Part shown: piece by piece, positions 1 through 18,405 of the stretch | Layout: each line of letters starts with the position of its first letter | Position numbering within the stretch: the stretch's first letter is position 1 | DNA from: an uncultured Spongiibacteraceae bacterium | GTDB taxonomy: Bacteria; Pseudomonadota; Gammaproteobacteria; Pseudomonadales; DT-91 | Direction of reading: 5' to 3' | Length of the DNA stretch: 64,000 nt | Assembly (NCBI GenBank): GCA_964617765.1 | Contig: CAZTZY010000004.1 | Span: 15 to 64,014, forward strand | Translations under genes and position numbers: made by a program | Notes under the pieces: model-generated | What the model saw: the letters and a program-made list of their open reading frames with translations, nothing else | Told to the model about the DNA's origin: nothing | Database searches by the model: none

Positions 1-1908
1 GCTGCGGGTAACGATGGTGCGGTGGCATCACAAGCCTATGTACTCGATACCACCGCACCGACCATTACTATCAGTGCTATCGATATTTCAGCCGATACCG
101 GTACATTGGCAACGGATTTTTTAACCAAAACCGCAGCCCAAACGATTACCGGTACTTTAGGTACAACGTTGGCGGTGGGGGATATTCTTTATGGTTCGGT
201 GGATGCCGGCAGTACCTGGACTGACATCACCAGTAAAGTGGCGGGCACAGCCATAACCTGGAACACGGCAACATTGTCGGGTAGCAGTTCCATTCAATTG
301 AAAGTGACCGATGCTGCGGGTAACGATGGCACCGTTGTTTCACAATCTTATGTATTGGATACCACAGCGCCAACCACCACTGTCAGTGCGATTGATATAT
401 CTGACGATACCGGTACAACAGATACAGATTTCAATACCTATACTGCATCACAAACCATTACTGCCACGTTGAGTACCGGTTTACTTGCCGGTGAAATACT
501 TTACGGTTCAGTGGATGCCGGTAGTACCTGGATTGATGTTACCGGCAAGGTGAGTGGTACCGCCATTAGCTGGAATGCAGCAACCCTTGCGGGTAGCAGT
601 TCCATACAATTTAAAGTCACCGATGCTGCCGGCAATGATGGCTCCGTCGCTTCACAAGCTTATGTACTGGATACCACAAACCCGGGTACCACGATCAGCG
701 CCATAGATATTTCTGCAGATACCGGCACCCTTGACTCTGATTTTCTGACCAAAACCGATGCCCAAACCATTACTGGCACCTTGAGTGCCTCGTTAGTGGC
801 CGGAGAAATTCTGTATGGATCAGTGGATGGTGGTGCAACATGGACCGATATTACCAGCAAGGCAACTCTGACGGCTATCAGTTGGGATGGCGTTACACTT
901 CTGGGTAGTACAGCTATTCAGTTTAAAGTCACTGATGCTGCCGGCAATGATGGTGCAGTAGCTTCACAGGATTATGTGCTGGATATATCAGCTTCCTCTA
1001 CCGTTATCAGTGCTATCGATATTTCTGATGATACCGGAAAGTTGGCTACAGACTTCAATACCAATACAGCAGCCCAAACCATTACGGCCACGTTGAGTGT
1101 CGATCTTGAAGTGGGTGATGTGTTATGGGGTTCGGTTGATGCCGGGGCATCATGGACCGATATCACCAGCAAGGCCAGTGGTACAGCCATTAGTTGGGAT
1201 GGGGCAACGCTCTCTGGCAGCAGTTCTATCCAGATTAAAATAATTGATGCTGCAGGTAATGAAGGCACAGTGGCATCACAAGCCTATGTGCTGGATAGTA
1301 CAGCTCCAACAACCCTGGTGAGCGGCATTGATATTTCCGCGGATACCGGCATATCGGCAACCGACTTCCTGACAAAAACCGCTTCCCAAACAATTACTGC
1401 TACATTGGACAATGCGTTAGTGGCGGGTGAAGTGTTGTGGGGCTCCGTCAATAACGGCTCAACATGGACAGATATCACCAATAAGGCATCGGGTACAGCG
1501 ATTACCTGGAATGGTGCAACCTTGTCAGGCAGCAATACCATCATTATAAAAGTCAGTGATCTGGCGGGTAATGACAGTACTCCAGAGACGCAGGCCTATG
1601 TGCTGGATACCGCTGCACCTACTACCACCATCAGTGGCATTGATATATCTGCTGATAGCGGCACACTGGCAACAGATTTCATCACCAAAACTTCATCTCA
1701 AACCATTACGGCAACGTTAACTACTGGGTTGGTGGCCGGTGAAGTGCTCTGGGGATCAGTGAATGGTGGTAGTAGCTGGACTGATATTACCAGCAAAGCC
1801 AGTGGAACAGCGATCAGTTGGGATGGAGCTACGTTATCAGGTAGCAGTTCGATAAAACTGAAAGTCAGTGATGAAGCGGGCAACGATGCGGCGGTAGCAA
1901 CGCAAACC
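1..1908 (+). repeat. In-frame tandem coding repeats, 312 bp / 104 aa per unit: 6 full copies plus a partial copy at the window edge
   Basis: The Y-V-L-D codons recur at nt 37, 349, 661, 973, 1285, 1597 and 1909, an exact 312-nt phase. The units are diverged at the DNA level but clearly homologous. Confidence 0.9.
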
Positions 1909-2745
1909 TACGTGCTTGATACGACAGCACCTACAGTAACCATTGCCAGTGCAAGTTATGATAATGCAACCAATACATTGACGTTGACCGGAACCAATAT
2001 AACAACACTGCTTTCTGGCAGTGAAACACCGGCTTCAGATTTGAAGGCCAATTTTGACTGGAGCAAATTGCAGTGGGATATCGATAGTGATAATACTGGC
2101 AATATCTCGTTTGCTTTAGCTGATATCACCAGTGCCAGGGCAACCAATGGCACGACATTGACCATTGTGTTAGGGGGTGCCAAGGCTGTTGCACTGGAAA
2201 GTACAGGTGGTTTTGATCCTTTATCGGGTAATGACAGCCTGGATATTACTACGGGTTTTACGGGAGACACAGCAGGCAATATGTCTGCCACAGACAGATT
2301 GAATACACCAGATCCTACAGTGGTTGTGTTTGATTTGGTGGGCGGGCTTTCTTCCAGCCATTCCGGTCGGGCTTTTGATGCGGGCACCAGTTATACCATT
2401 TATGTTATGGTTGATTCGAATAGTAGTGCCTTGGCAGCTCCGACACAGTGGACAGCTGGGGGCAATTTGGGCTCCGACGATACGATTGTGTTGGTGGGTA
2501 ACGGTTCAGCAATTCTTGGTCCAGTGAATAATGCGGTAACGCGCTCAAGCATTACACCGCCTTTTACACTATTATGGAGTTCTGCCTCTGGGTGGGCTGC
2601 CTTACTGACTGGTGCCGGTAGTTTCTTGCGACAATCTTCTATGGTGGTTACAACTCAAAAAATTTGGTCGGGATCGGGTACCCCTGTAGCTGGCGGTTTC
2701 CTGACAACTTTACCAATCGGTATATATACTTCTCAAGGTTTGTGA
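1..2745 (+). CDS. Giant T1SS-type surface adhesin, C-terminal fragment (BapA/LapF-like Ig-like tandem repeats); 5' end lies outside the window
   Basis: Frame 1 is open from nt 1 (AAGNDGAVASQA...), so the ORF-track Met at nt 22 is internal. The 104-aa units read DTTAP..IDIS(A/D)DTG..TDF(L/N)T..QTITxTL..GSVDxGxxWTDIT..DAAGND. A distinct ~280-aa C-terminal domain follows. Complete T1SS genes lie directly downstream. Confidence 0.8.
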   Translation, partial: AAGNDGAVASQAYVLDTTAPTITISAIDISADTGTLATDFLTKTAAQTITGTLGTTLAVGDILYGSVDAGSTWTDITSKVAGTAITWNTATLSGSSSIQLKVTDAAGNDGTVVSQSYVLDTTAPTTTVSAIDISDDTGTTDTDFNTYTASQTITATLSTGLLAGEILYGSVDAGSTWIDVTGKVSGTAISWNAATLAGSSSIQFKVTDAAGNDGSVASQAYVLDTTNPGTTISAIDISADTGTLDSDFLTKTDAQTITGTLSASLVAGEILYGSVDGGATWTDITSKATLTAISWDGVTLLGSTAIQFKVTDAAGNDGAVASQDYVLDISASSTVISAIDISDDTGKLATDFNTNTAAQTITATLSVDLEVGDVLWGSVDAGASWTDITSKASGTAISWDGATLSGSSSIQIKIIDAAGNEGTVASQAYVLDSTAPTTLVSGIDISADTGISATDFLTKTASQTITATLDNALVAGEVLWGSVNNGSTWTDITNKASGTAITWNGATLSGSNTIIIKVSDLAGNDSTPETQAYVLDTAAPTTTISGIDISADSGTLATDFITKTSSQTITATLTTGLVAGEVLWGSVNGGSSWTDITSKASGTAISWDGATLSGSSSIKLKVSDEAGNDAAVATQTYVLDTTAPTVTIASASYDNATNTLTLTGTNITTLLSGSETPASDLKANFDWSKLQWDIDSDNTGNISFALADITSARATNGTTLTIVLGGAKAVALESTGGFDPLSGNDSLDITTGFTGDTAGNMSATDRLNTPDPTVVVFDLVGGLSSSHSGRAFDAGTSYTIYVMVDSNSSALAAPTQWTAGGNLGSDDTIVLVGNGSAILGPVNNAVTRSSITPPFTLLWSSASGWAALLTGAGSFLRQSSMVVTTQKIWSGSGTPVAGGFLTTLPIGIYTSQGL

Positions 2746-2788
2746 TTGATCAGTGATTACCCATAATGAGTGAGTCGGGTTTCGATGA

Positions 2789-2811
2789 GCGGAATGATTT
2801 ATTCATTCCGC
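2789..2811 (+). terminator. Stem-loop downstream of the adhesin stop codon (possible terminator or attenuator)
   Basis: GCGGAATGA-tttat-TCATTCCGC is a perfect 9-bp stem about 45 nt after the stop at 2745. No U-tract follows, so intrinsic termination is uncertain. Confidence 0.35.
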
Positions 2812-3098
2812 CCTGCCCATGAACATCTCTTCCGGCACCTGGAATTCCAGCCTTAAATTACTCAACTGTCATTGCCCGGTCTCTGGCTAGTTAATAATAT
2901 TTACAAAGCTTCCGGATGTGCCTCACAAAGATATTTTCTGGCGTTTTTGCAACTCTGGGGGAAACTTCATCATTTTGTGTAACAAGTTCATTTTCGAGCC
3001 AATCTATCAATCTTTACGGTGAAATTAGCTAAAATACCTGACTACTGATGTGACACCCTTTATAGTTAGTCTCTAAAAATGATAACAACAATAAATCC

Positions 3099-5816
3099 AT
3101 GATTATTTCCTTACTGCGCAAACTGGCTGACCAGCAACAATACTCCGAACTAGAGAGCTCGGCGTTAGGCTTTTGGACAGAACATCAAGACATACAAATA
3201 TTGCCTTTACTGGCTTTATCTTATGCCCATACAGGTCAATGGCAGCGGGCAAATGAAACCTTCGCTATTGCTCAAGAATATAAAGCAGATTTACCCCCCG
3301 CATCTTTAATAGATATGGCGGCCGTCCTGATTGTGTTGCATCGGATAGAGGCAGCTGAGGAGTTGTTAAAAGAAGCCATCAAACTGTTGCCTGACCATGG
3401 TTTGGGGTTGGCACGTTTGGCATTTTGCCGAATGGTGCAGGGGGATTTACCCACAGCCCAGACTCTGTTTAAACAAGCTGCACTTCTGGATCCAGAGCGT
3501 ATACCCATTCGGAATTTATTGGCACAAGTCTATTTACAACAATCGGCTTTTGCTGAAGCCCAGGAAGTGGTCAGCCAGGCTTTGCCAATACTTGAGAGTA
3601 TTCGAGCTAACCTTAATGATGTGTTGTATCAGCAATATTGGCAGCTGTTGTGTTTGTTGCAGTTGCAGATCTGGGTGGCTGAAGATGCCTTTGCCCATGC
3701 TGAACAATGGTTGCAGGAACAACAGAAATTACATCAGCAGGATGAAATTGAAGAAGCCCAATATATATACTGGATAAGCCAATATAGCCGTTTGCTGGCC
3801 GAGCAGGATCATCACCAGCAAGCTTCAGAAATGTTGCGCAATACTTTAAAAGCCTATCCCGATAATACGGTGTTGTGTTTGCAGTTGGCGGAACTGTCTC
3901 AGGTGCAAGGGCAATTTATGCCTGCCATCCGCTTGTTGAACAGAGCCTTGAAAAAAGACCCGGAAAACATCGCTTTATGGGTACAGCTAGCCACTGCCAG
4001 TTTGCATCGTTTTGATAAAAAAGCCCGGCAAGCCGCTGAAAAAGCCGTAGCATTGGCAGCTGCCCTTCAAGAAGATGCAGATCATCCTTTGCATGCCATA
4101 AAAATCCAGCAGGCCCAGGCCAAAAATGCCCTGGCTCAAGTGGAAAGCCAGGAGCAGAATTTTGATATTTCTGAATCACTTTTTTCAGAAATACTGGCCG
4201 ATCATCCATACTTTGTGCCTGCCTTGCAGGGTTTGGGCCAGCAGTATTTACAGCAAGGGAAAATTGAAGAAGCGTTAGCATTGTTTGAACGTATTAAAGC
4301 GGTTGATCCCATCAAAGGTATTGCTTCGCTGATTTCTGCGCGACGTTATCCCGAGGATGAAGAAACACTCGAAAAAATGGCGAAGGCGGCCGAACGCCCT
4401 AGTATCGAAGGTCCATTGAAAAGCAGTATTTTGTTTCAGTTGGCAGCCGCTTGGGAAAAACGTAAAGACTACGATAAAGCGTTTACTTTTGCAGAAAAAG
4501 CCAATGCCACTACCAAAAAATTTCTCCCTTATGATGCCATGGCTCACCGCAATATGTGCGCGCGCATTCGCATGAGTTTTTGCAAAGCCTTGTATGAGCA
4601 TCGTCCCGGTTTTGGAATTGATTCTACCGTGCCTGTGTATGTGTTAGGCATGCCGCGTTCTGGCACTACACTGGTTGAACAAATCCTTGCTGGCCATAGC
4701 GAGATTTTTGGTGCCGGTGAGTTGGGTATTATTCCGCAAGTGATTCAAGGGTTGAATCGCTGGGAACGGCATGTGGGTTCGGGTCGCACTTATCCGGATT
4801 GTATTGACGACCTGACTCCTTACATAACCGCTGGCATCGCCAATAATGTATTAAAGGAGTTGCAGGAATACGCTCCAGAAGCCAAACACATTGTTGATAA
4901 GCTGCCCCATAATTTCGAGAATATCGGGCTGATTAAATTTTTATTCCCCAAGGCGAAAATTATTTCAGTGAGAAGAGATTCGCGTGATATTGCCATTTCT
5001 AACTATTTTACTGATTACCAGGCCAAGCATGGCGGCATGGGTTTCGCCTATGATCTTGAGAATATTGGCGAACAATTGGCAGATCATAATCTAATGATGC
5101 ATCACTGGCACCAGATTTTCCCCGGGGAAATCCTGGAAGTGAAATATGAGGATGTAGTGGATGACATAGAAGGCAGTGCCCGTAAAATGCTGGCTTATAT
5201 CGGCGTTGATTGGCAGCCGGAAGTGCTCAAATTCAATGAACTTGAACGCACGGTAAAGACCGCCAGTGTATGGCAAGTGCGTCAACCCATTTACAAAACA
5301 TCCAAGGCAAAATGGCAACAATACGAAAAATATATAGCCCCTTTGATCAAGGGAACCAATGCTAAAATATTGCCTGATCCTTATGAAATGCTAACCTTGC
5401 CAGAGCCGGGCTTTTTGCAAGCCGGAGTTGAGCTTTATACACTGGGTAACCTGGATGGTGCTGAGTTGAGTTTCAAGAAAATGCTGCACCATAATCCGGA
5501 ACATGCCGCCTGTAATTATATGTTAGGCCTGGTTTATCTCAGTAAGGGAAATTTGCAGGAGGGTATAGTACAGATTGAAAAAGCCATTGGTAAAAGCCCG
5601 TGGCATAAAGATTGGCGAGAGAATTTGCATAAAGCCTATGAACTGGCCGGAGAGCATGAAAAAGCGGCTGAACTTGGAAAACGGTTTAATCGTCAAAAAC
5701 GAATGGAAGAAACAGTGGAAAATAAAGAGTTAGGCAATACAGAAGACAATACAGAAGACAATGCAGAAGACAATGAATGGATAATGGATGCTGAAGATTA
5801 TGTGCAGGAAGATTAA
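3099..5816 (+). CDS. TPR repeat-flanked sulfotransferase family protein (905 aa)
   Basis: The N-terminal ~500 aa are TPR-like helical repeats. The sulfotransferase core has a PAPS 5'-phosphosulfate loop (VLGMPRSGTTLVEQIL) and a 3'-phosphate-type motif (ISVRRDSRDIAISNY). A second TPR block (ELYTLGNLDGAELSFKKML..., YMLGLVYLSKGNLQEG...) and an acidic NTED-repeat tail follow. Confidence 0.8.
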   Translation: MIISLLRKLADQQQYSELESSALGFWTEHQDIQILPLLALSYAHTGQWQRANETFAIAQEYKADLPPASLIDMAAVLIVLHRIEAAEELLKEAIKLLPDHGLGLARLAFCRMVQGDLPTAQTLFKQAALLDPERIPIRNLLAQVYLQQSAFAEAQEVVSQALPILESIRANLNDVLYQQYWQLLCLLQLQIWVAEDAFAHAEQWLQEQQKLHQQDEIEEAQYIYWISQYSRLLAEQDHHQQASEMLRNTLKAYPDNTVLCLQLAELSQVQGQFMPAIRLLNRALKKDPENIALWVQLATASLHRFDKKARQAAEKAVALAAALQEDADHPLHAIKIQQAQAKNALAQVESQEQNFDISESLFSEILADHPYFVPALQGLGQQYLQQGKIEEALALFERIKAVDPIKGIASLISARRYPEDEETLEKMAKAAERPSIEGPLKSSILFQLAAAWEKRKDYDKAFTFAEKANATTKKFLPYDAMAHRNMCARIRMSFCKALYEHRPGFGIDSTVPVYVLGMPRSGTTLVEQILAGHSEIFGAGELGIIPQVIQGLNRWERHVGSGRTYPDCIDDLTPYITAGIANNVLKELQEYAPEAKHIVDKLPHNFENIGLIKFLFPKAKIISVRRDSRDIAISNYFTDYQAKHGGMGFAYDLENIGEQLADHNLMMHHWHQIFPGEILEVKYEDVVDDIEGSARKMLAYIGVDWQPEVLKFNELERTVKTASVWQVRQPIYKTSKAKWQQYEKYIAPLIKGTNAKILPDPYEMLTLPEPGFLQAGVELYTLGNLDGAELSFKKMLHHNPEHAACNYMLGLVYLSKGNLQEGIVQIEKAIGKSPWHKDWRENLHKAYELAGEHEKAAELGKRFNRQKRMEETVENKELGNTEDNTEDNAEDNEWIMDAEDYVQED

Positions 5817-7143
5817 AAATTATTTTATAAGAAAGAGCCACAAGCAATTTTTAATGTCGATGCTGTGTGCACTTTTTTGTTTGATAAATATTGGCGGGCA
5901 GCGTGTTTTTGCGGAAGCTGAAAATACGGTTTTAAACAAACCGGTCATTTCCGAAAACCCATCCGGCCTGGTAGCGGCCTTGCAATCGGTTATAAAGCTG
6001 CATCCAGCTATTAAAAGCCAGCGATCGAAAGTCGATGCGCTGGAATACTCGATCAGTGCCGCTAAATCCGGACGTTATCCCTCCTTGTCAGCACAGGCCA
6101 ATAATGTCAACGAAGAAATGGATCGCGGCACTCTGCAAATAAAACAGCCACTATGGGCATTTGGAAAGATTGATAGTGCTATTGAGGCAGCTAAAGCTAA
6201 CTGGTCTGTAGAAAAATGGATGTTACTGCAGGTGCAGCGGCAGTATATTGAAGAGACTGCAGTAGCCTATGCAAAATTATTGGGTATTCATCAGCAGCAA
6301 GCGGTTGCTGAATTGAATATTATTGAGCATGAAAAGCTTTATCAGCGTATACAGCATCGTCAGCAGGGGCAGCTGGCGTCAGTAGCCGATGTTAATCTCG
6401 CCAATTCCCGTTTGATACAGGCTCAATCGAGGCTGGATAGAATTCGTGGTGAATGGCTCAGTGCCTTGGCCGAGTTACAGGCATTAACACAGGTGTTAGT
6501 CAATGCGGATCAATCCGTTGATGAGGCGCTTATTTCTTTGCCAGCTATGGAAGAAGTGGAGAAGCTTGCTATTGAAAACAGTGCGGATTTGCAAGTGAAG
6601 CGTGAGCAAGCTGTTGCCGTTAGTATTACTGTTAAACAAGAGCGCGTAGCTGCAACGCCCACGGTGTATTTTCAGGTAGATCACGAGGCACTTGACCAGG
6701 TTGATAATCGCTTGAATCGAACCCAGTCAGGTTTGGCCATTGAGGCGTCATTGGGTGGAGCCGGATTTACCACCTTAAACCGGGTAAGGGGTGCCGAGGC
6801 AAAACTGGAAAGCGCACAGTATGATATTGATGCTGCGATTAACGATATTAAACGTCGAGTACAAACCTTGATGCTGGGTTTACAGATACAGAATAACCTT
6901 GGCAAGTCACAAACTGAAACTATTCTTGTGGTCGAAGAAACACTGGCTTCGTTTATGCGGCAATATGATACAGGCCGAAAATCATGGATAGATTTGTTGA
7001 ATACCCAGCGGGAACTGACGGAGTTACGTTATCAACAGGTGCAAATTGACAATGATCGATTGATTCTTTCGTTGCGTGTGGCAGCATTAATTGGCAATCT
7101 GGATAAAATGGCAGGTATCGAGGCCTTCAATGAAGACAAATGA
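5788..7143 (+). CDS. TolC-family outer membrane channel of the T1SS
   Basis: It has a basic N-region and hydrophobic signal peptide (..MSMLCALFCLINIGGQRVFA/EAE). The body is a two-fold repeated long coiled-coil OEP-like sequence. It sits directly upstream of the ABC and MFP genes, and its stop overlaps the ABC start. The start is ambiguous (ATG at 5788, 5800 or 5854). Confidence 0.75.
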   Translation: MLKIMCRKIKNYFIRKSHKQFLMSMLCALFCLINIGGQRVFAEAENTVLNKPVISENPSGLVAALQSVIKLHPAIKSQRSKVDALEYSISAAKSGRYPSLSAQANNVNEEMDRGTLQIKQPLWAFGKIDSAIEAAKANWSVEKWMLLQVQRQYIEETAVAYAKLLGIHQQQAVAELNIIEHEKLYQRIQHRQQGQLASVADVNLANSRLIQAQSRLDRIRGEWLSALAELQALTQVLVNADQSVDEALISLPAMEEVEKLAIENSADLQVKREQAVAVSITVKQERVAATPTVYFQVDHEALDQVDNRLNRTQSGLAIEASLGGAGFTTLNRVRGAEAKLESAQYDIDAAINDIKRRVQTLMLGLQIQNNLGKSQTETILVVEETLASFMRQYDTGRKSWIDLLNTQRELTELRYQQVQIDNDRLILSLRVAALIGNLDKMAGIEAFNEDK

Positions 7144-9385
7144 ACCAATACCCGTAAATGCGGATCATGCACTTCCAGAATCTGCGCAAGAACAATTAGT
7201 GCAAGTGCCGTTACCAGTAAATGTATTGAATAGTTTATTGCAACGCTTGAAGGTATCTGTTGAGGCGGGCGCATTATCAATGGCATGCCTGAAAGCCGAG
7301 AAGGAGTTGCCGGGTTCATCACCAGTCAAACGTATCAATGCTGTTTTTAATAACCTGCAATTACAGGGTATACAAGTTGCCTTGTTGGGTTGGGCGCGTT
7401 TTGATCAGCGCTATTTGCCTGCGATGATATTTTTTAAATCACAATGGTTTTTAATAGAACGTACAGAAAATAATCTTTTTATTCTTGCTGATAATAATGG
7501 CCAGCGTATTGAGGCGGTCAATGAAGATCTGCAAGGTGCGATGGTGCTGTGGTTTCGTAACGTAAAAAAACAGGCCTCGAAAATTCCCTTCTCTACAAAA
7601 GATAACCGGGCCTTTGCGCTGGTATGGCATGAACTCTTCAAACATCCACGCTGGGTGCGGGATATCACCTTGGCAACAGTGCTGGTGAATCTGATTGCCA
7701 TTTCCACTTCCCTGTTTGCGATGCAGGTATATGACCGTGTGGTGCCGACGTTATCCTATGCAACATTATGGACTTTGGTCGCAGGGATGTTTATCGCAGT
7801 GGCCCTGGACTGGATACTCAAAACTGTTAGAAGCCGGGTTCTCGACAGTGTGTCTTGCGAAGCCAATGATGCAATATCACAGCATGTATTTGATCATGTG
7901 ATGCATTTGCAACTGGATACGCGTCCACGTTCACTAGGCACCCTGGCAGCACAGGTAGGCGGCCTTGATTCAGTGCGCCAGTTTTTTTCTTCGGGGGTTA
8001 TTTTTGGCTTGGTTGATATGCCCTTTGCTTTATTGTTTATTGCATTTATCGGCATTATTGGTGGCCATATTGCCTGGGTTTACCTGTTGCTTTTACCTGT
8101 TGCTGCCGTGCTCGGTTTGCTTAACCAGAAATATCTGCGTCGTTTAACGCGGCAGCAAATGATGCGCTCGAATGAACGTCAAGGTTTATTGGTTGATGCT
8201 ATTCAGGGTACGGAATCTATTCGGGCCAGCAATGCCACCTGGCGTTTTTCGGAACAATGGAAAAGCATTACCCATTCTATTGCGGAATATAATATCCAGC
8301 AGAAAGCCATTGGCAGTTTGAGCGCCGTGACAACCTCCAGTATTTCTACCCTCGCCTATGTTGCTGCCATCGTTGTAGGGGTTTACGGTATTGAGGCCGG
8401 TACACTAACGATGGGTGCCATGATTGCTTGTAGCATATTGGGTGGCAGGGTTATTGCTCCGGTAGCACAAAGTATCCAGTATCTTGCACAGTGGCAGAAT
8501 GTATCCGAGGCTTTGATGATGGTTAACCAGGTCTTATCGCTTAATACAGAACGTCGTGAGGATCAAAACCTGTTAATGCCCGATGAAAAGCCGGAGAAGG
8601 TGATATTGGAATCCGTGCAGTTTTCTTATCCCAATTCACCGGTTAAACAGATTGATATTCCCGGCCTGAGTTTCCAGTCGGGTGACAGGGTTTTACTGTT
8701 AGGCCCTATTGGTTCAGGTAAATCGACATTGTTGAAAGTGTTGGCCGGTTTATATCGACCATCGCAAGGACGCATTCGTTTGGGTAATGCAGACTTGTGG
8801 GAGATACATCCACATATTGTTGCCGACCAGGTGGGTTATTTGCCGCAATCAGTGCATTTATTTAAAGGTACATTACGCAGCAATTTATGTTTGTCCGGTG
8901 CGGTGAGTGATTCCCATTTGTTAAAGGTGTGTGAAGATCTGGGCATTGACCGTATAGCGGCCAATAACCCCTTGGGTATGGATCTGGAAATCAGTGAGGG
9001 TGGGGAAGGTTTGTCCGGTGGCCAAAAACAATTGGTTGGGCTAGGTCGTGTATTTTTAGCACAACCCCGAATCTGGTTGCTGGATGAGCCAACAGCTTCG
9101 CTGGATAGCGAAGGTGATGCCAAGGTGTTAGATGCCATTGCAGCCTACATCAAGCCAGAAGATATTCTTGTGGTTTCTACGCATCGTGTGGCATTGGCTT
9201 TAAAAATTGCCAATAGGGTCATTATGATGCAACAAAGCCAGATTGTTGCAGATGGCAAACCTGATGAAGTGATCCCCCAGGCTATGCGCGCAGCCAGTTT
9301 GCCCACAGGGGGTATTTCGGCTGCCAGGCCAAAACCAGGATTATCATTTCCAGTAATGAACAAGGGACCCAATAATGTTATTTGA
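7130..9385 (+). CDS. Type I secretion system permease/ATPase (LssB/HlyB-like) with a degenerate N-terminal C39-like domain
   Basis: ATG at 7130 (MKTNEPIP), because the ORF-track start at 7091 is TTG. TM domain motif: LFAMQVYDRVVP. Walker A: GPIGSGKST. ABC signature: LSGGQKQ. Walker B: IWLLDEPT. The ~160-aa N-terminal domain lacks the C39 catalytic Cys and His context. Confidence 0.85.
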   Translation: MKTNEPIPVNADHALPESAQEQLVQVPLPVNVLNSLLQRLKVSVEAGALSMACLKAEKELPGSSPVKRINAVFNNLQLQGIQVALLGWARFDQRYLPAMIFFKSQWFLIERTENNLFILADNNGQRIEAVNEDLQGAMVLWFRNVKKQASKIPFSTKDNRAFALVWHELFKHPRWVRDITLATVLVNLIAISTSLFAMQVYDRVVPTLSYATLWTLVAGMFIAVALDWILKTVRSRVLDSVSCEANDAISQHVFDHVMHLQLDTRPRSLGTLAAQVGGLDSVRQFFSSGVIFGLVDMPFALLFIAFIGIIGGHIAWVYLLLLPVAAVLGLLNQKYLRRLTRQQMMRSNERQGLLVDAIQGTESIRASNATWRFSEQWKSITHSIAEYNIQQKAIGSLSAVTTSSISTLAYVAAIVVGVYGIEAGTLTMGAMIACSILGGRVIAPVAQSIQYLAQWQNVSEALMMVNQVLSLNTERREDQNLLMPDEKPEKVILESVQFSYPNSPVKQIDIPGLSFQSGDRVLLLGPIGSGKSTLLKVLAGLYRPSQGRIRLGNADLWEIHPHIVADQVGYLPQSVHLFKGTLRSNLCLSGAVSDSHLLKVCEDLGIDRIAANNPLGMDLEISEGGEGLSGGQKQLVGLGRVFLAQPRIWLLDEPTASLDSEGDAKVLDAIAAYIKPEDILVVSTHRVALALKIANRVIMMQQSQIVADGKPDEVIPQAMRAASLPTGGISAARPKPGLSFPVMNKGPNNVI

Positions 9386-10589
9386 TCTATTGTTTACCGA
9401 TGATGATACAAGAAGGCAGCAAGCCATTGCCAGGCTGGAAAATTTCCATCGGCGTCCCTATTCAGTATTGTTGTTCATTATTGCAGGCGCATTAATGGCA
9501 TTTGCCTTGTGGGCCTGGTTTTTCAAGATTGATCAGGTGGCTCGAGCAAAAGGTGAGGTTATTGCCAGTAGCAGGGTTCAAATTATCCAGGCTGTTGATG
9601 GCGGGGTGCTGGCTGCCTTGAATGTAAAGGAGGGCGATACTGTTGAAAGAGGGCAGGTGTTAGCGCAGCTTGATCAAATCAAATTGGGTGCTTCCGTAAA
9701 AGAAATTGAGGCGCGCCTGTCTTCATTAAAGGTTAAGGCTATTCGACTAAGGGCTGAAGTGATTGGCGTGAATGAGCTGCAATTTCCATCAGAACTGAAT
9801 CAATATCCCGATTTGGTTCAGGTTGAACAGGCTTTGTTTCAACAGCGTCGACTGGGATTGAAAGAAGAAATTCGTACGATTGAAAATTCCATTAAACTTG
9901 CACAGGAAGAAACAGATTTAGTGCGGCAGTTAGTGAAATCGGGGGATGCCAATCGATCTGAAGTCATTCGTGCAGAAAATGCCCTGAATGAGGCTAATTC
10001 CAAATTGATTATCCGCAAGAACCGTTTTTTTGAAGAAGCCAGTTCAGAGTTGACCAAAGTGGAAGACGGCATTGCCCAAAATGAACAAGTGTTGGCACAG
10101 AGGCAGCAACAACTCGAAGACAGTACTTTCAGGGCGGTAGTGCCCGGTATTGTTAAAAACATCCGGGTGACTACCGTGGGCGGTGTGTTGCGTGCCGGTG
10201 AAGAGTTAATGCAAATTATCCCTATTGATGATCAGCTGATTATTGAGACAAAAGTGAGTCCGGTAGATATTGCCCAGATACGGCCAGGCTTGGCAGCCAT
10301 GATTCGTTTTGATCCTTTTGATTACACAATTTTTGGAGCGGTGGAAGGCAAGGTTGTATATGTGAGTGCTGATACACTAAAGGAAGATACGCCCAAAGGT
10401 GAAGAAATTTATTACCGCGTTCATGTGTCCAGCAATTCACTTCCTGTGACTACTACGACAGGAAAGGAAATCGATATTTTGCCGGGTATGACCGCGCAGG
10501 TTGATATTCGCACAGGAAGTCGAAGCGTATTGGATTACTTATTAAAGCCATTGCGTAAAACGGTGACTGAATCGTTTGGTGAAAGATAG
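9375..10589 (+). CDS. HlyD-family T1SS membrane fusion protein
   Basis: It has a single N-terminal TM segment (VLLFIIAGALMAFALWAWFF), a lipoyl-like segment (GEVIASSRVQIIQAVDGGVL), a long coiled-coil hairpin and a C-terminal beta-barrel (ILPGMTAQVDIRTG). It overlaps the ABC gene by 11 nt. Confidence 0.85.
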   Translation: MLFDLLFTDDDTRRQQAIARLENFHRRPYSVLLFIIAGALMAFALWAWFFKIDQVARAKGEVIASSRVQIIQAVDGGVLAALNVKEGDTVERGQVLAQLDQIKLGASVKEIEARLSSLKVKAIRLRAEVIGVNELQFPSELNQYPDLVQVEQALFQQRRLGLKEEIRTIENSIKLAQEETDLVRQLVKSGDANRSEVIRAENALNEANSKLIIRKNRFFEEASSELTKVEDGIAQNEQVLAQRQQQLEDSTFRAVVPGIVKNIRVTTVGGVLRAGEELMQIIPIDDQLIIETKVSPVDIAQIRPGLAAMIRFDPFDYTIFGAVEGKVVYVSADTLKEDTPKGEEIYYRVHVSSNSLPVTTTTGKEIDILPGMTAQVDIRTGSRSVLDYLLKPLRKTVTESFGER

Positions 10590-10718
10590 CTTGCTATACA
10601 ATATGGAAGTGCGTGCCATGTGTGATTTCTCATGCAATGAAAATATTGCGGGTAGAATTATTAGGGTATTCAGCGGACTCACATTTGCCGCTGCATGATT
10701 ACTCTCGTGACGGTAAAA

Positions 10719-11858
10719 TTATTCAGTGCTGAAGTTAAATTGCATTTGTCGAAGCTTGTCCAGTGCATAAGTGCTTAATACCGCGTTTTTATTTTCCGAA
10801 ATAATCCAGATGTCTTTTTCACTGTTGCTCAGGTTGTAAATGAACTTCTGCAGGGTTGCATGGGCTTTTTCTTCGGTGCTGGATTGTTGTTTGTAGTTAT
10901 TATGTCTTTGCAGCAAATATTTTTGGAAGGCCTGTTTTAATTCAGCAATCGACTTACTGCCAATTTTCTTCTCTATCAATTCCTCTACATAAGCTGTGGA
11001 AGCTATAGTGTCAAGAATCAGTTGCTCGCCTTTGTCAGTGAGTAATAGTTTTTTTGCGCGTTTATCAGAAGGGTCATCGACCCTGGCAATATAGTCAGCT
11101 TTTTCAATTTCGTTAGCCAGTTGGCTGATTGCCTGTTTTGATATGCCATTCAGTTCGGCAAGATCATTAATGCGCACACCTTGCTGGGTAATTTTTTCGA
11201 GGACTTGCCAGTAAGAGCGTTTTAACGGTGCATGACCTTTTTGGGCATTTTTTTCCTGCATTAATAAATCCAGTTGTGTCGCTATTGAGGTGACATAGGC
11301 AATCAGGGGTAATTCACTGGAGATTTCCGGAGTATACGCCCCGGCATCAGGATATTTTAATGACAGGCTTTTAAATAACGCATGTGAATGAGTTTTTAGT
11401 GCATAAAAAGCTGTTTCACCCATGTTTGATTTGAGTCTGGCATCTGTATCGCTGGTAAAGCTGGCGGCCTGGCGAATCAGATGAATACCTTGCGTTGTCA
11501 GGATCAGTTTTTTCGAGCGCTTGTCAGTCTGGTCATCTGCGCGGGTAATGTACCCAAGGCTTTCCAGTTCATTGGCAATTTGCCCAATAGCTTGTTTGCT
11601 GACCCCTTGGGATTTGGCAATATCGACGATGCGTGTGCCTGTGCTGGAAATTTGCGGCAAAATCAGTGCATGGGAAAGTTTGAGCCCTTTATGACCAGCG
11701 GCCAGAGCCTTATCCATCAAATCCTTGTAAATGTCATCTGCCAACAATGAGTAATACAAGCAAAGATTGTCGGAGAGGTTATTAAGTTTGTGGCTAAGTT
11801 TTTCGGTCGTCATGATCTTCACATCGTTATTGTGAGTAGAGTGTAGCATAAAGGACAA
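10719..11858 (-). CDS. Tandem (duplicated) MarR-family transcriptional regulator
   Basis: One chain carries two winged-HTH units. Unit 1: TRIVDIAKSQGVSKQAIGQIANELESLGYITRADDQTDKRSKKLILTTQG. Unit 2: VRINDLAELNGISKQAISQLANEIEKADYIARVDDPSDKRAKKLLLTDKG. The ORF-track start is TTG; ATG candidates are at 11849 and 11813. Confidence 0.75.
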   Translation of the reverse strand: MSFMLHSTHNNDVKIMTTEKLSHKLNNLSDNLCLYYSLLADDIYKDLMDKALAAGHKGLKLSHALILPQISSTGTRIVDIAKSQGVSKQAIGQIANELESLGYITRADDQTDKRSKKLILTTQGIHLIRQAASFTSDTDARLKSNMGETAFYALKTHSHALFKSLSLKYPDAGAYTPEISSELPLIAYVTSIATQLDLLMQEKNAQKGHAPLKRSYWQVLEKITQQGVRINDLAELNGISKQAISQLANEIEKADYIARVDDPSDKRAKKLLLTDKGEQLILDTIASTAYVEELIEKKIGSKSIAELKQAFQKYLLQRHNNYKQQSSTEEKAHATLQKFIYNLSNSEKDIWIISENKNAVLSTYALDKLRQMQFNFSTE

Positions 11859-12858
11859 TCGATATTGACTATATAGACAGGTATAATTTACTGTTTATTT
11901 TCCCGCAATATTTTGTTGAATGACTCCTTTTCAGGTATTTGTCATGAAAATAGTTAGATTTGATCTGATCTGTATTTCCATAAAGTTATTGAACCCCCTT
12001 ATCCTGGAAACTCGAATCGTATATTTGGGTATTGGTCAACGATTTGCTTGAGTAGTATTTGATCGAATTACAGGACTAATATCCTGCCTGATTTGTGGTG
12101 TACCTGCCGATGGTAGTTATTTTACGTCTGATTATAATTCCTTGAAATGGTGAGTATTGGTTGTGAAAATTAATCAATTTGCTGTTATCGTGCAATAAAA
12201 ACGAGTTTAAAGTTCTGCCTGCAGCTGCAGGCAAGTATTGATGTTGTGTCGACTTTGCAAACAGGCGGCAAAACCTGATTGGATTGCTGGGTATGGAAAA
12301 GCAGTTCGCATTGATGGTTCTGCCAGGTTATTGCTCGGAACTGCGAGGGTATATATTGAATTATATGGGAAAATCCTGATGTGTATGATGACCCTCGTAA
12401 AACCATGGGGCACTGCGGTTTTGGTATTCATGCCTGCGTGGATTCTGAAGAAATTCTAAAATGGTTGCCATAGTATGCATTGACGAATCAGCTTTGTAGT
12501 GTATGCATTCTCCCAATGTTCGTGGGTTTATTCATATCCCGTTGCCCTGCAGGTTTTAAACCAGTCTTTTCTGTTAAATGTTCAAATTTTGCACTGTTTT
12601 TGAGCGTCCCATGCTCCGGTCTTCTATTACCAACTATTATATTTGTGTTTGTGTCTAGCTCATGTAGAATCAGGAACTTATCGTAGAAAAGTAAAACAAT
12701 TTTAATAATAAATAATAACGTAAAAAATGCGCTCACTGCCCATCAAAATTTCCTGATGTTTGTGCTCCTGAAACTCAATACGCAGTTTACGTTTGGTTTT
12801 ACTTGTAAAAAACGAATCAAAATCGGATTAATCCATAAACATAATGGATGGATGAAGA

Positions 12859-13386
12859 ATGAAGAATCTTAGAAATCTGGGTGCTTATTGCGGGCAGGTA
12901 ATTTTTTTTCTGTTCATTTCATATGCTGCAATCGCTGCAGACCTTAATCAGGAAAAAACGCAATTAAAAGTTGATGTAGATGCCTTGGGAAGAGATATTG
13001 CTGCTGTTGAAAAGGATATTTTATTGCCCTCTGCCTCTCGTGTTGAGGTTTTTTTATCATTGGCTCCCAATGTTGAATATACGCTCAAGTCAGTCACTTT
13101 GCTTCTTGATGGCAATGAAGTAGCCAGTCATACCTATTCCGGGGCGGATATCAAATCATTGTTGTTTGGTGCCCTGCATACAGTTTGGCAGGGTAATGTC
13201 GACTCAGGTTCGCATGTATTGCAGGCAAAATTTTCAGGCATTGATCGTAAGGATAAACCCGTACAAAACACGGCAACACTAGACTTTGAAAAATCAGCCA
13301 ATCATCGTTCTCTGGAGTTGAAAATTACTTTTACTGAAGAGGATAAGATTGTGGTGTATTCGGTAAAGGATTGGGGTGATAAATAA
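12859..13386 (+). CDS. Secreted protein of unknown function (signal peptide, short coiled coil, beta-rich domain); first gene of the TPR/ExbBD/TonB-like operon
   Basis: The N-terminal hydrophobic signal is VIFFLFISYAAIAADL. There are only 2 nt between its stop and the next start. I recognise no family motif. Confidence 0.55.
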   Translation: MKNLRNLGAYCGQVIFFLFISYAAIAADLNQEKTQLKVDVDALGRDIAAVEKDILLPSASRVEVFLSLAPNVEYTLKSVTLLLDGNEVASHTYSGADIKSLLFGALHTVWQGNVDSGSHVLQAKFSGIDRKDKPVQNTATLDFEKSANHRSLELKITFTEEDKIVVYSVKDWGDK

Positions 13387-13388
13387 AA

Positions 13389-14852
13389 ATGAAATCATCA
13401 ACTAGATTTATTGCTATTGCCGCAGCATTGTTTTCCTGCTGCGTACAGGCAAAAACCAATTTTTGGGCGGTGGATGCAGCTTCGCCTGTTGCTGAAGATA
13501 TTCCGTATCGTGCGGCACATTTTTTTCAGCGCTCGCACGAGTATGAAAAAGCTTTGGCAGTATTGTCGACAGCCAATCGAGCTTCTGCATCGGCGGTGGT
13601 AAATGCCCATAGGGATATGCTGGCAGGATATTTGAACATATTGCTCAAGCGTTATGAGGATGCCGAGCGTTCTTTGGCGGGCTTGGGTGACCCACAAATA
13701 TTTTCTGATTATAACGCCCAGGTTTTGTATCCATTGGCGCGTGCTTATTATGGTCAATCGCGTTGTGATAAGGCATTAGGCACGATTGCCAGGGCGCAGG
13801 GATTTCATCCTGAAATAAATGCCCGTGTGATGCATATTCGGGTTGCCTGTATGTTGCAGCAAAGTTCCGATGCCAGTGTGATTAGCCAGGCTGAAAGTGT
13901 TATCAATGATGCATTAATGACAAAAAGCGATGTTGATAAAATGTGGTTTGCCTATGCGTATTATAATCTGGCTAGTGCGGCTGCAGGGCAATTCCAGAAT
14001 TACATGGATGCAGATCGATTTTTTAATGAAGCCCTGAAGTATGCCGATAATTCATCGGAAGGATTAGCATTAAAAGAGCGTACATTGCTGAATCTGGGTT
14101 TTGCTAATTATGCGGATAACCGTTTTGACTATGCGGCGAAGGCGTTTGCCGAGTTGCCAGTAGATGGAATATGGGCTGATGTGGCGCTCTTGGCTTATGG
14201 GTGGGCGTCTTTAAATAGCTATAAGCCCGATATGGCTATTGAGTCATGGCGGCAATTGGTCAATCTGCCCTATAAATCTGCTGCGGTTTATGATGGTTAT
14301 ATGGCAATTCCGCAGGCTTATGAAAAGGCAACATCCTATTCCGAAGCATTAGCTGCATATGATGAGGCTATTGTTGAATTCTCGAAGCTGGCGAATGATA
14401 TTGATGGATTACTGAAAACATTGTCACGTCAAAAAATCCATGAGTATGCGATCCAGTACTCTCAGGATAACAAAGAAACCGCAAAAAACTTGCCGGCATT
14501 ATTGGCTCGTACTTATACAGAAGATAATTTGCGGGGCAAGGTTGAGTTTATTAATGACATCGAGTCGTATAAAAAACGTTTGACGGAGTATGAAAAAGTA
14601 TTGCAACAATTACAGGCTAAAGGCGGGGCGGAGGCGGTTAAATTAAAAGTCTTGCAAAATAATATTGTTTCATTAAGGCAGCGGAGCGAGAAAGTGCTAG
14701 TGATTGAAGAGACTCAATTATTGGAGCAGACCCTGGTTATGCTGAATCAGCAAAAGAAGAAGATCATGCAATATACACTCGATGCACGGATTACCAATGC
14801 GCGTTTGCAAGAGGAGTTTTTTCAGCGTGGGGGTCGTAGATTATGGCGATAA
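13389..14852 (+). CDS. Secreted or lipoprotein TPR-like helical-repeat protein with a C-terminal coiled coil
   Basis: The signal/lipobox-like N-terminus is IAIAAALFSCC. It has repeated TPR-like helices (YEKALAVL, YEDAERSL, CDKALGTI, FDYAAKAF, YSEALAAYDEAI) and a coiled-coil tail (KKRLTEYEKVLQQLQAK). Its stop overlaps the next start (TAATG). Confidence 0.6.
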   Translation: MKSSTRFIAIAAALFSCCVQAKTNFWAVDAASPVAEDIPYRAAHFFQRSHEYEKALAVLSTANRASASAVVNAHRDMLAGYLNILLKRYEDAERSLAGLGDPQIFSDYNAQVLYPLARAYYGQSRCDKALGTIARAQGFHPEINARVMHIRVACMLQQSSDASVISQAESVINDALMTKSDVDKMWFAYAYYNLASAAAGQFQNYMDADRFFNEALKYADNSSEGLALKERTLLNLGFANYADNRFDYAAKAFAELPVDGIWADVALLAYGWASLNSYKPDMAIESWRQLVNLPYKSAAVYDGYMAIPQAYEKATSYSEALAAYDEAIVEFSKLANDIDGLLKTLSRQKIHEYAIQYSQDNKETAKNLPALLARTYTEDNLRGKVEFINDIESYKKRLTEYEKVLQQLQAKGGAEAVKLKVLQNNIVSLRQRSEKVLVIEETQLLEQTLVMLNQQKKKIMQYTLDARITNARLQEEFFQRGGRRLWR

Positions 14853-18404: not shown

Positions 18405-18405
18405 C

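What the first reader, a model, noticed from the sequence alone, without database searches (positions are those of the whole stretch)
3099..10589. TPR-flanked sulfotransferase wedged between a T1SS adhesin gene and its dedicated TolC/ABC/MFP genes
Seen in the sequence:
- The 905-aa ORF has a clear PAPS-binding sulfotransferase core (GMPRSGTTL at nt ~4646-4672; RRDSRDIAISNY at nt ~4970-5005) embedded in TPR arrays.
- It lies 353 nt after the adhesin stop and abuts or overlaps the TolC gene.
- TolC, ABC and MFP are translationally coupled (start/stop overlaps at ~7130-7143 and 9375-9385).

Established knowledge: the best-known sulfotransferase genetically coupled to a T1SS is Xanthomonas raxST-raxA-raxB, where RaxST tyrosine-sulfates the RaxX peptide before export by a peptidase-containing ABC transporter.

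Inference: this enzyme may modify the giant adhesin, or a glycan on it, before or during export. TPR arrays would suit docking onto a repetitive substrate. Sulfation of a bacterial T1SS adhesin would be new as far as I know. Co-location could also be fortuitous.
Basis: partly seen in the sequence, partly recalled or inferred. Interest (0 to 1): 0.62.

Follow-up and report, generated by a model that had tools for sequence, protein, structure and literature searches.

The report
Sulfotransferase built into adhesin secretion operon
A cytoplasmic enzyme resembling animal protein-tyrosine sulfotransferases is a conserved, dedicated member of a widespread bacterial gene module that exports giant surface proteins, so these proteins are probably sulfated before export; I found no published description of this.

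Summary
Five co-oriented genes sit at the stated coordinates: the 3' end of an Ig-repeat giant protein, a 905-aa TPR-sulfotransferase-TPR protein, TolC, an LssB-type ABC transporter and a HlyD adaptor. The last four overlap or abut.

The co-location is not fortuitous.
- Of 24 loci found through the sulfotransferase's own clade, 19 carry the T1SS genes and 16 carry the cargo's C-terminal domain.
- Of 64 loci with more distant TPR-sulfotransferases, 1 carries adjacent exporter genes and 0 carry the domain (p about 1e-13).
- The reverse search, starting from the cargo C-terminus alone, recovers the sulfotransferase in 11 of 14 informative metagenome loci.
- Three loci append an APS kinase, the enzyme that makes PAPS.

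The catalytic domain's closest solved relatives are protein-tyrosine sulfotransferases, with the Arg/Glu/Lys/Ser positions kept.

What is shared is an unannotated ~145-aa C-terminal domain ending in ...MPxGILTSQGL. That domain, not the repeats, is the likelier docking site.

Sulfation of the cargo is inferred, not shown. The closest known system is Xanthomonas raxX-raxSTAB. I rate this a new variant of a known kind. No RNA data exist for this metagenome-derived genome.

The parts
1..2745 (+). 3' part of a giant Ig-repeat (Big_13) T1SS cargo or adhesin gene; its 5' end lies outside the window
   Evidence: Open frame. Big_13, E 8.5e-22. 312-nt tandem repeats at 28-1397. Full-length cargo genes at the same position in related loci hit Ca_tandemer and Ig_like_ice adhesin models.
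2224..2742 (+). Conserved cargo C-terminal domain: VVFDLv.G.SS.HSGR.F....SYtIYI.VDS...W.G..nLGsDD.I.LVGnG...LW...lP.GIyTSQGL-COOH
   Evidence: Alignments A2, A3 and A4. HMM hit E 6e-51. AF2 pLDDT above 90 for the ~145-aa core. No PDB fold match. No Pfam or NCBIfam model. 405 clusters in 1.84 billion representatives, nearly always at the extreme C-terminus.
2746..3098 (+). 353-nt intergenic region, with a hairpin at 2789-2811 (no U-tract) and a promoter-like site at 3038-3066
   Evidence: In orthologous loci this gap is often only 12-52 nt.
3099..5816 (+). 905-aa cytoplasmic TPR-sulfotransferase-TPR protein (TPST-like catalytic core)
   Evidence: Pfam Sulfotransfer_3, E 1e-42, plus TPR families. 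No signal peptide. AF2 mean pLDDT 82. More than 120 orthologues at 55-81% identity.
4647..4673 (+). 5'-phosphosulfate-binding loop GMPRSGTTL (residues 517-525; R520)
   Evidence: Invariant in A1 and A5. Aligned to the TPST G.PRSGTTL motif.
4719..4721 (+). E541, candidate catalytic base
   Evidence: Invariant. Aligns with the second Glu of the TPST 'GEET' motif.
4899..4901 (+). K601 (DKLP), aligned to the TPST NKDP lysine
   Evidence: Invariant. Alignments.
4971..5006 (+). 3'-phosphate-binding motif RRDSRDIAISNY (R626, S634)
   Evidence: Invariant R626, D627, R629, D630 and S634. Aligned to the TPST RDGR...S motif.
5256..5294 (+). Invariant KTASVWQVRQPIY motif; S723 aligns with the Ser of the TPST 'STDQVIKP' motif
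   Evidence: invariant columns 720-732. Profile alignment to TPST chain 8w5z.
5735..5774 (+). In-frame 12-nt repeat (3.3 copies) encoding the NTED-NTED-NAED acidic tail; not conserved in orthologues
5788..7143 (+). TolC-family outer-membrane channel (start at 5788 or 5800, overlapping the sulfotransferase stop)
   Evidence: PF02321 OEP, E 2e-33; TIGR01844. Sequence.
7091..9385 (+). LssB-type T1SS ABC permease/ATPase (likely ATG at 7130); the N-terminal domain has no Peptidase_C39 hit
   Evidence: TIGR03375, E 6e-183, 610 bits (cutoff 693). ABC_membrane and ABC_tran.
9375..10589 (+). HlyD-family T1SS periplasmic adaptor
   Evidence: TIGR01843, 315 bits (cutoff 209).

Best explanation
This is a five-gene cargo-tailoring type I secretion module: giant Ig-repeat surface protein, TPR-sulfotransferase-TPR enzyme, TolC, LssB-type ABC transporter and HlyD adaptor.

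Shown:
- The enzyme has no signal peptide.
- It keeps all PAPS-binding and catalytic positions of protein-tyrosine sulfotransferases.
- It belongs to a distinct clade that is inherited together with this T1SS and with cargo proteins bearing one particular C-terminal domain.

Inferred:
- In the cytoplasm, the TPR solenoids hold the still-unfolded cargo. The likeliest handle is the conserved C-terminal domain, which is the only part the different cargos share.
- The catalytic domain transfers sulfate from PAPS to hydroxyl groups of the cargo. Tyrosine is the first guess, by homology.
- This happens before or while the ABC/HlyD/TolC channel threads the protein out C-terminus first.
- The product would be a sulfated, more anionic surface or matrix protein.
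For: 1. Conserved synteny. Of 24 loci in the sulfotransferase clade, 19 carry TolC/ABC/HlyD and 16 carry the cargo C-terminal domain (CTD). Of 64 paralogue loci, 1 and 0 do (Fisher p = 9e-14 and 5e-12). Examples are Psychromonas ingrahamii, Marinomonas, Aliiglaciecola, Pseudomonas benzenivorans and P. borbori, Zobellella, and a Thermodesulfobacteriota MAG.
2. Reverse test. Starting from the cargo CTD alone, 16 of 28 metagenome loci have the sulfotransferase. Among those with at least 3 kb downstream, 11 of 14 do.
3. Tree. The window's enzyme sits in a clade of 33 with 100% local support, of which 29 are linked. The label needs 11 changes against 30 in shuffles (0 of 500 as low).
4. Pairwise identities covary: sulfotransferase vs ABC r = 0.87, vs adaptor r = 0.88.
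5. APS kinase follows the adaptor gene in three loci.
6. The closest solved relatives are TPST1/2 (profile E 1e-17), ahead of CurM ST (7e-12) and SULT1A1 (5e-6). R520, E541, K601, S634 and S723 are aligned and invariant.
7. Gene packing is tight. The sulfotransferase and TolC overlap here. Cargo-to-sulfotransferase gaps are 12-52 nt in L007-L010 and L012.
8. In a Zetaproteobacteria locus, a second enzyme fusing TPR, sulfotransferase and a GT41 (OGT-type) domain lies between the cargo and the orthologue. On general knowledge, GT41 enzymes glycosylate proteins.
9. The N-terminal TPRs resemble the OGT/SPINDLY TPR solenoids. On general knowledge, OGT's TPR solenoid binds extended polypeptide substrates.
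Against: - There is no biochemical evidence. No acceptor residue is identified, and the conserved Tyr84 and Tyr87 of the CTD lie in a predicted beta-strand and are not in an acidic TPST-type context.
- TPST R101-type substrate-binding residues are not kept (G543; the TPST numbering is recalled, not tested).
- Some CTD-bearing cargos have no sulfotransferase nearby (L090, L104, L111).
- Proteins that use the CTD-like domain as an internal tandem repeat have neither a sulfotransferase nor a T1SS nearby.
- A few orthologues are orphans (L085, L014).
- In this window a 353-nt gap with a promoter-like site separates the cargo from the sulfotransferase, so they may be separately transcribed.
- The inter-domain geometry of the model is uncertain (pTM 0.50).
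Confidence: 0.58

Rival explanations
1. Chaperone or adaptor role. The TPR-sulfotransferase mainly holds the giant cargo unfolded and hands its C-terminal domain to the ABC transporter. The sulfotransferase domain would then act as a PAPS/PAP-sensing or regulatory module, or would modify a T1SS component rather than the cargo.
For: The TPR arrays are unusually well conserved and make up two thirds of the protein. The enzyme covaries with the ABC transporter and the adaptor. The gene sits between the cargo and the transport genes. No convincing sulfation motif is seen in the cargo.
Against: All catalytic and PAPS-binding residues are invariant across phyla, which argues for catalysis. APS kinase is recruited into three operons, which argues for donor consumption. 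The enzyme also accompanies a different, PrtD-like ABC type in Marinomonas and Methyloglobulus, so its partner is unlikely to be the ABC N-terminal domain.
Confidence: 0.17
2. A different acceptor. The enzyme sulfates a non-protein molecule, such as a surface glycan, a lipid or a small molecule, that works together with the adhesin in the matrix. It would be co-located only for co-regulation.
For: Members of the Sulfotransfer_3 family include non-protein sulfotransferases such as CurM ST, which is the next-best PDB relative. The more distant TPR-sulfotransferase paralogues lie in non-T1SS contexts, some with APS kinase.
Against: No glycosyltransferase, polysaccharide-export or lipid genes are conserved in the module. 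The gene's fixed position between the cargo and TolC and its tight coupling argue against it. TPSTs are clearly the closest relatives. The module travels across phyla as cargo, sulfotransferase and T1SS only.
Confidence: 0.18
3. Fortuitous neighbourhood: an unrelated sulfotransferase gene happens to lie in a T1SS locus.
For: In this window the cargo and the sulfotransferase are 353 nt apart with a hairpin and a promoter-like site between them. A few orthologues are orphans.
Against: Linkage is conserved in both directions across Gammaproteobacteria, Zetaproteobacteria and Thermodesulfobacteriota.
Confidence: 0.02

Closest known systems
Xanthomonas raxX-raxSTAB (RaxST tyrosine sulfotransferase, RaxA adaptor, RaxB ABC transporter; TolC (RaxC) and PAPS synthesis (RaxPQ) encoded elsewhere)
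   Same: The logic and gene order match: substrate gene, then a PAPS-dependent TPST-like sulfotransferase, then T1SS genes. Modification would occur in the cytoplasm before ABC/MFP/TolC export. PAPS supply is sometimes co-encoded (APS kinase in three loci).
   Different: - RaxX is a 60-residue precursor with a double-glycine leader that is removed before secretion, and the cluster occurs only in Xanthomonas (PMC6637879).
- Here the substrate is a multi-thousand-residue Ig-repeat protein with an uncleaved C-terminal domain.
- The ABC transporter is LssB-type with no C39 peptidase hit.
- The enzyme is about three times larger, with TPR arrays on both sides.
- The module occurs in several phyla.
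- Direct homology to RaxST was not tested here, because no RaxST sequence was on hand.
Metazoan tyrosylprotein sulfotransferases TPST1/TPST2 (PDB 3AP1, 5WRI, 8W5Z)
   Same: These are the closest solved relatives of the catalytic domain (E 1e-17). The 5'-PSB, the catalytic Glu, the Lys, the 3'-PB and the C-terminal Ser motif all align.
   Different: TPSTs are Golgi-lumenal type II membrane proteins without TPRs. Identity is only about 25%. TPST's substrate-binding arginines (recalled from the TPST2 literature) are not kept. The acceptor residue here is unknown.
HlyC-type acylation of RTX toxins (hlyCABD), and cytoplasmic adhesin-modifying enzymes (HMW1C N-glycosyltransferase, autotransporter heptosyltransferases)
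   Same: An operon-encoded cytoplasmic enzyme modifies a large secreted protein before export (established knowledge).
   Different: The chemistry differs (acylation or glycosylation rather than sulfation). The enzyme folds are unrelated, and none has a TPR scaffold.
O-GlcNAc transferase / SPINDLY (TPR solenoid plus catalytic domain)
   Same: The architecture is a long TPR superhelix fused to a protein-modifying catalytic domain. The N-terminal TPRs hit the OGT and SPY TPRs by sequence and by fold. One related locus encodes a TPR-sulfotransferase-TPR-GT41 fusion.
   Different: The catalytic domain and the donor differ. No Asn-ladder was evident. This is a resemblance in architecture only.
LapA/MpIBP-type RTX adhesins with LapBCE T1SS
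   Same: Giant Ca-stabilised Ig-repeat surface proteins exported by a dedicated ABC/MFP/TolC system. The cargo orthologues hit the Ca_tandemer and Ig_like_ice models.
   Different: No retention-module hit was found in three full-length cargo orthologues. I saw no RTX nonapeptide (GGxGxD) repeats when reading the in-window C-terminal region. No LapG or LapD hits appeared among the ORFs I scanned, which were not the whole window. The C-terminal domain is a distinct, unannotated one ending in LTSQGL.

Membership tests
PAPS-dependent sulfotransferase (Sulfotransfer_3, PF13469) | Domain match above the curated cutoff | tested here: met
   147 bits against a cutoff of 27; profile positions 1-216 of 216.
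PAPS-dependent sulfotransferase (Sulfotransfer_3, PF13469) | 5'-PSB loop (PRSGTT) and 3'-PB motif (R...S) present and conserved | tested here: met
   GMPRSGTTL at 517-525 and RRDSRDIAIS at 625-634, invariant in 25 and 21 orthologues.
Tyrosylprotein sulfotransferase-like enzymes (TPST/RaxST type) | TPSTs are the closest characterised relatives | tested here: met
   Profile E 1e-17 for TPST1/2, against 7e-12 for CurM ST and 5e-6 for SULT1A1.
Tyrosylprotein sulfotransferase-like enzymes (TPST/RaxST type) | Catalytic Arg, Glu, Lys and Ser positions conserved | tested here: met
   R520, E541, K601 and S723 align to the TPST motifs PRSG, GEET, NKDP and STDQV. All are invariant. The TPST residue numbers are from memory.
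Tyrosylprotein sulfotransferase-like enzymes (TPST/RaxST type) | Transfers sulfate to peptidyl tyrosine | not testable with these tools
   Needs an in vitro PAPS assay or mass spectrometry.
Rax-type sulfation-coupled T1SS | The sulfotransferase gene is adjacent to the substrate gene and to the ABC and MFP genes, and this arrangement is conserved | tested here: met
   19 of 24 clade loci; p = 9e-14.
Rax-type sulfation-coupled T1SS | Small GG-leader peptide substrate processed by a C39 peptidase domain on the ABC transporter | tested here: not met
   The substrate is a giant Ig-repeat protein. There is no Peptidase_C39 hit on the ABC transporter at E <= 0.01. The best model is LssB.
LssB-type T1SS ABC transporter (TIGR03375) | Score above the curated cutoff | tested here: not met
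   609.7 bits against a cutoff of 693.1. It is still by far the best model (the next is PrtD at 313 bits). I treat it as LssB-like.
HlyD-family T1SS adaptor (TIGR01843) | Score above the curated cutoff | tested here: met
   314.6 bits against 208.65.
LapA-like RTX adhesin | N-terminal retention module and RTX nonapeptide repeats before the C-terminal signal | tested here: inconclusive
   The N-terminus lies outside the window. Three full-length cargo orthologues show no retention-module hit. I saw no GGxGxD repeats when reading the in-window C-terminal region. The C-terminal domain matches no library model.

The most novel reading that the evidence does not exclude
A widespread family of bacteria (Gammaproteobacteria, Zetaproteobacteria, Thermodesulfobacteriota) sulfates giant type I-secreted surface adhesins in the cytoplasm. 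The enzyme would be a TPR-guided, TPST-like sulfotransferase that recognises a previously unannotated C-terminal cargo domain ending in ...LTSQGL, whose predicted fold matches no solved structure. This would be the first protein sulfation system for large bacterial surface proteins, and only the second bacterial protein sulfotransferase system after RaxST.
Probability: 0.5. Interest if true: 0.82.

Novelty: new variant of a known kind. Interest (0 to 1): 0.68.

Why it matters
To my knowledge, protein sulfation in bacteria is documented only for the RaxX peptide of Xanthomonas. If giant adhesins are sulfated before export, that adds a new post-translational modification to bacterial surface biology. 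Plausible consequences are changed charge, cation binding, mimicry of sulfated host or algal glycans, and altered matrix cohesion in marine and sediment biofilms.

It would also give a second, much more widespread bacterial TPST-like enzyme for biochemistry and biotechnology, for example recombinant tyrosine sulfation. It would define a new T1SS cargo class through its C-terminal domain.

The hypothesis is directly testable in cultivable hosts that carry the module, such as Psychromonas ingrahamii 37, Marinomonas and Pseudomonas benzenivorans.

Tried and rejected
I could not look for paralogues, PAPS-synthesis genes or further cargos in the window's own genome.
- RNA evidence for co-transcription is unavailable. 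The only holders of this sequence are two DNA runs from one freshwater-sediment metagenome sample, and no RNA runs exist.
- Foldseek on the full-length model returned only TPR solenoids, so it said nothing about the catalytic domain. I used sequence and profile searches against PDB instead.
- I considered that the window enzyme's acidic tail (…DAEDYVQED) might be a conserved auto-sulfation or pseudo-substrate motif. Rejected: the tail is variable and an acidic Tyr occurs in only 32 of 120 orthologues.
- I considered that the CTD-like domain always marks sulfotransferase substrates. Weakened: proteins with many internal copies (P0126, P0130) have no sulfotransferase or T1SS within 10 kb.
- The first CTD alignment (A2) was too diverse for the metagenome scan; a narrower one (A3) worked.
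- P0125, which has 49 copies of the domain, was too long for a context look-up.
- Six literature searches found nothing on a sulfotransferase in adhesin T1SS loci apart from Rax. The library lacks most subscription journals, so this is absence of evidence only.

Full report
**1. Observation**

The window's first 10.6 kb holds five co-oriented plus-strand genes.
- The frame at 1-2745 is open from the window's first base. It encodes 104-aa Ig-like repeats: Pfam Big_13 (E 8.5e-22) with a 312-nt tandem period.
- After a 353-nt gap comes a 905-aa ORF (3099-5816). It has a full-length Sulfotransfer_3 match at residues 512-707 (E 1e-42), and many TPR families match on both sides.
- TolC (5788 or 5800 to 7143; OEP, TIGR01844) overlaps the sulfotransferase stop.
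- The ABC transporter (ATG 7130 to 9385) is best matched by the LssB model TIGR03375. It scores 610 bits, just under the 693-bit cutoff. It overlaps TolC by 14 nt.
- The HlyD adaptor (9375-10589; TIGR01843, above cutoff) overlaps the ABC gene by 11 nt.
- The hairpin at 2789-2811 exists but lacks a U-tract. The region's folding energy is unremarkable (z = -1.85).
- A promoter-like site lies at 3038-3066.

**2. Is the linkage conserved?**

*The sulfotransferase family.* The protein has more than 120 full-length homologues at 55-81% identity and about 890 aa. They come from Psychromonas ingrahamii, Marinomonas, Aliiglaciecola, Pseudomonas benzenivorans, Aeromonas fluvialis, Desulfotalea, Magnetococcales and Mariprofundaceae.

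*Forward test, starting from the sulfotransferase.*
- A scan of one genome per species gave 80 loci. I added seven exact look-ups.
- tblastn with the window's proteins and an HMM of the cargo C-terminus give the counts below.

| Loci | n | T1SS genes in the locus | Cargo C-terminal domain |
|---|---|---|---|
| Enzyme at least 40% identical to the window's | 24 | 19 | 16 |
| TPR-sulfotransferase paralogues at about 30% identity | 64 | 1 (adjacent ABC + MFP) | 0 |

- Fisher p is 9e-14 for the T1SS genes and 5e-12 for the domain.
- The usual order is cargo, sulfotransferase, TolC, ABC, adaptor. The cargo-to-sulfotransferase gap is 12-52 nt in several loci.
- A tree of the catalytic domain puts the window's enzyme in a clade of 33 with 100% local support. 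Of these, 29 are linked. The linkage label needs 11 changes on the tree, against 30 in shuffles (0 of 500 as low).
- Pairwise identities of the sulfotransferase track those of the ABC transporter (r = 0.87) and the adaptor (r = 0.88) over 19 loci. ABC against adaptor gives 0.95. The module is therefore inherited as a unit.

*Reverse test, starting from the cargo.*
- A metagenome scan seeded only with the cargo's C-terminal domain returned 28 loci.
- In 16 of them the sulfotransferase accompanies the cargo. Among the 14 distinct loci with at least 3 kb downstream, 11 have it.
- Exceptions exist. In L104 the cargo is followed by a PQQ dehydrogenase and other unrelated genes. L090 and L111 also lack it.

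*PAPS supply.* An APS kinase gene follows the adaptor gene in Marinomonas, P. benzenivorans and P. borbori. APS kinase makes PAPS.

The co-location is therefore not fortuitous.

**3. What the enzyme is**

- It has no signal peptide or membrane segment.
- AF2 gives mean pLDDT 82: an N-terminal TPR solenoid of about 23 helices, an alpha/beta catalytic domain, four C-terminal TPR-like hairpins and a disordered acidic tail.
- The only close solved relatives of the catalytic domain are metazoan protein-tyrosine sulfotransferases. A single-sequence search gives E 4e-12. A profile search gives E 1e-17, against 7e-12 for CurM ST and 5e-6 for cytosolic SULT1A1.
- The alignments place R520 (PRSG), E541 (second Glu of TPST 'GEET'), K601 (NKDP), R626/S634 (3'-PB) and S723 (TPST 'STDQV') at the TPST positions. 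All are invariant in 21-25 orthologues.
- The mapping of these motifs to TPST2 R78, E99, K158 and S285 is from my memory of the TPST2 literature, not a tool result.
- The catalytic domain is 62-82% identical across the clade.
- The N-terminal TPRs hit the OGT and SPINDLY TPR solenoids by sequence and by fold.

**4. What the cargos share**

- Cargo repeat families differ between loci: Big_13 here, Big_12 in Psychromonas, cadherin in the Thermodesulfobacteriota MAG, and no Pfam hit in Marinomonas and Aliiglaciecola. The TPRs are therefore unlikely to dock on a specific repeat.
- All cargos end in one conserved domain: VVFDLv.G.SS.HSGRtF....SYtIYI.VDS...W.G..nLGsDD.I.LVGnG...LW...MP.GILTSQGL[AVS]-COOH.
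- The domain has no Pfam or NCBIfam model.
- AF2 predicts a compact beta-rich core of about 145 residues at pLDDT above 90. It has no PDB fold match; the best Foldseek E is 1.2.
- A profile search of 1.84 billion representatives finds 405 clusters. The domain is almost always at the very C-terminus.
- The terminal LTSQGL motif was not part of the scan patterns, yet it recurs in the metagenome hits.
- In the Marinomonas locus, where a shorter PrtD-like ABC replaces the LssB-like one, the cargo keeps the VVFDL core but the extreme C-terminus differs. This single case hints that the last residues are the transporter's signal and that the core domain goes with the sulfotransferase. That is inference.

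**5. Mechanism**

*Shown:*
- The gene module is conserved.
- The enzyme's catalytic motifs are intact.
- The sequence predicts a cytoplasmic protein.
- Donor-supply genes are sometimes recruited.

*Inferred:*
- The TPR arrays hold the unfolded cargo, most likely through the shared C-terminal domain.
- The catalytic domain sulfates cargo hydroxyls with PAPS before or during C-terminus-first export. Tyrosine is favoured by homology.

*Supporting by analogy:* in a Zetaproteobacteria locus, a 1202-aa fusion of TPR, sulfotransferase, TPR and a GT41 (OGT-type) domain lies between a CTD-bearing cargo and the orthologue. On general knowledge, GT41 enzymes are protein glycosyltransferases.

*Against:*
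- No acceptor site is evident. The two nearly invariant tyrosines of the C-terminal domain sit in a predicted strand without acidic neighbours.
- Proteins that carry the domain as internal tandem repeats have no sulfotransferase or T1SS nearby.
- In this window the cargo and the sulfotransferase may have separate promoters.

My confidence estimates are:

| Claim | Confidence |
|---|---|
| The enzyme is a dedicated component of the module | about 0.9 |
| It sulfates the cargo protein | about 0.58 |
| Tyrosine is the acceptor | about 0.35 |

**6. Comparison with the known**

- The closest system is Xanthomonas raxX-raxSTAB. It has the same logic: substrate, sulfotransferase and T1SS, with PAPS supply needed.
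- The differences are substantial. RaxX is a 60-residue GG-leader precursor whose leader is removed before secretion. The cluster is confined to Xanthomonas, and raxST homologues elsewhere are mostly not linked to raxA/B (PMC6637879). Here the ABC transporter has no C39 hit, the substrate is a giant adhesin-type protein, and the enzyme carries TPR arrays.
- HlyC acylation of RTX toxins and HMW1C glycosylation of adhesins are functional analogues with other chemistry.
- Six full-text searches found no description of a sulfotransferase in adhesin T1SS loci.
- Earlier notes of this scan saw the same or similar modules in other genomes. They agree with this report but are not independent evidence. 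I re-derived the linkage here.

**7. Limits**

- The window comes from a freshwater-sediment metagenome with no RNA runs.
- The rest of the window is ordinary chromosomal content: nuo genes, ExbBD, MMPL/DUF1329 and others.

**Verdict**

The conserved linkage is established. Sulfation of the cargo is plausible but unproven. This is a new variant of a known kind (Rax-like sulfation-coupled type I secretion). Interest: 0.68.

Noticed in passing
L005:5472-9080 (Zetaproteobacteria MAG PEAA01000012.1): A 1202-aa fusion protein, TPR - Sulfotransfer_3 - TPR - Glyco_transf_41 (OGT-type), lies between a CTD-bearing cargo gene end (85-633) and the sulfotransferase orthologue (9992-12655). It could be a dual sulfation/glycosylation tailoring enzyme.
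   Followed up: partly
P0125 (7573 aa, 49 copies); L116:10001-22870; L117:10001-21007: The cargo C-terminal domain (minus the LTSQGL end) also occurs as an internal tandem repeat in a few giant Big_5 proteins. Two of them, from one 3.3-Mb contig, have no sulfotransferase or T1SS within 10 kb.
   Followed up: partly
window 5735-5774: An in-frame 12-nt repeat (3.3 copies, NTED-NTED-NAED) lies in the sulfotransferase's disordered acidic tail, just upstream of the overlapping TolC start. The tail is not conserved among orthologues. An acidic '...DAEDYVQED' end is shared only with the 81%-identical homologue.
   Followed up: yes
L015:5410-11214 (Desulfobacteraceae MAG): A distant (32% identical) TPR-sulfotransferase is followed directly by an ABC exporter and a HlyD-type adaptor that are only 25-29% identical to the window's. 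This may be an independent pairing of sulfotransferase and exporter.
   Followed up: no
window 10719-11858 (-): A 379-aa protein with MarR-family winged-helix matches is encoded convergently right after the T1SS operon. It is not seen in the orthologous loci examined, where LysR-type regulators appear in two.
   Followed up: no
window 12859-21607 (+): This cluster holds two ORFs with no Pfam hit (175 and 487 aa), a 945-aa and a 245-aa TPR protein, then ExbB, two ExbD and a 357-aa ORF with no hit. It looks like a TonB/ExbBD-type energising module with large TPR partners.
   Followed up: no
window 21962-27287 (+): A BNR/Ycf48-like beta-propeller, an MMPL (RND-like) protein and a DUF1329 lipoprotein lie together. 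On general knowledge, this is a recurring cluster of unknown function in Gammaproteobacteria.
   Followed up: no
L082:40-16431 (Marinomonas CP061081.1): A variant module order: TolC, cargo, sulfotransferase, short PrtD-like ABC (562 aa), adaptor, APS kinase. The cargo keeps the VVFDL core domain but ends ...SQAVTWATPS instead of LTSQGL.
   Followed up: partly
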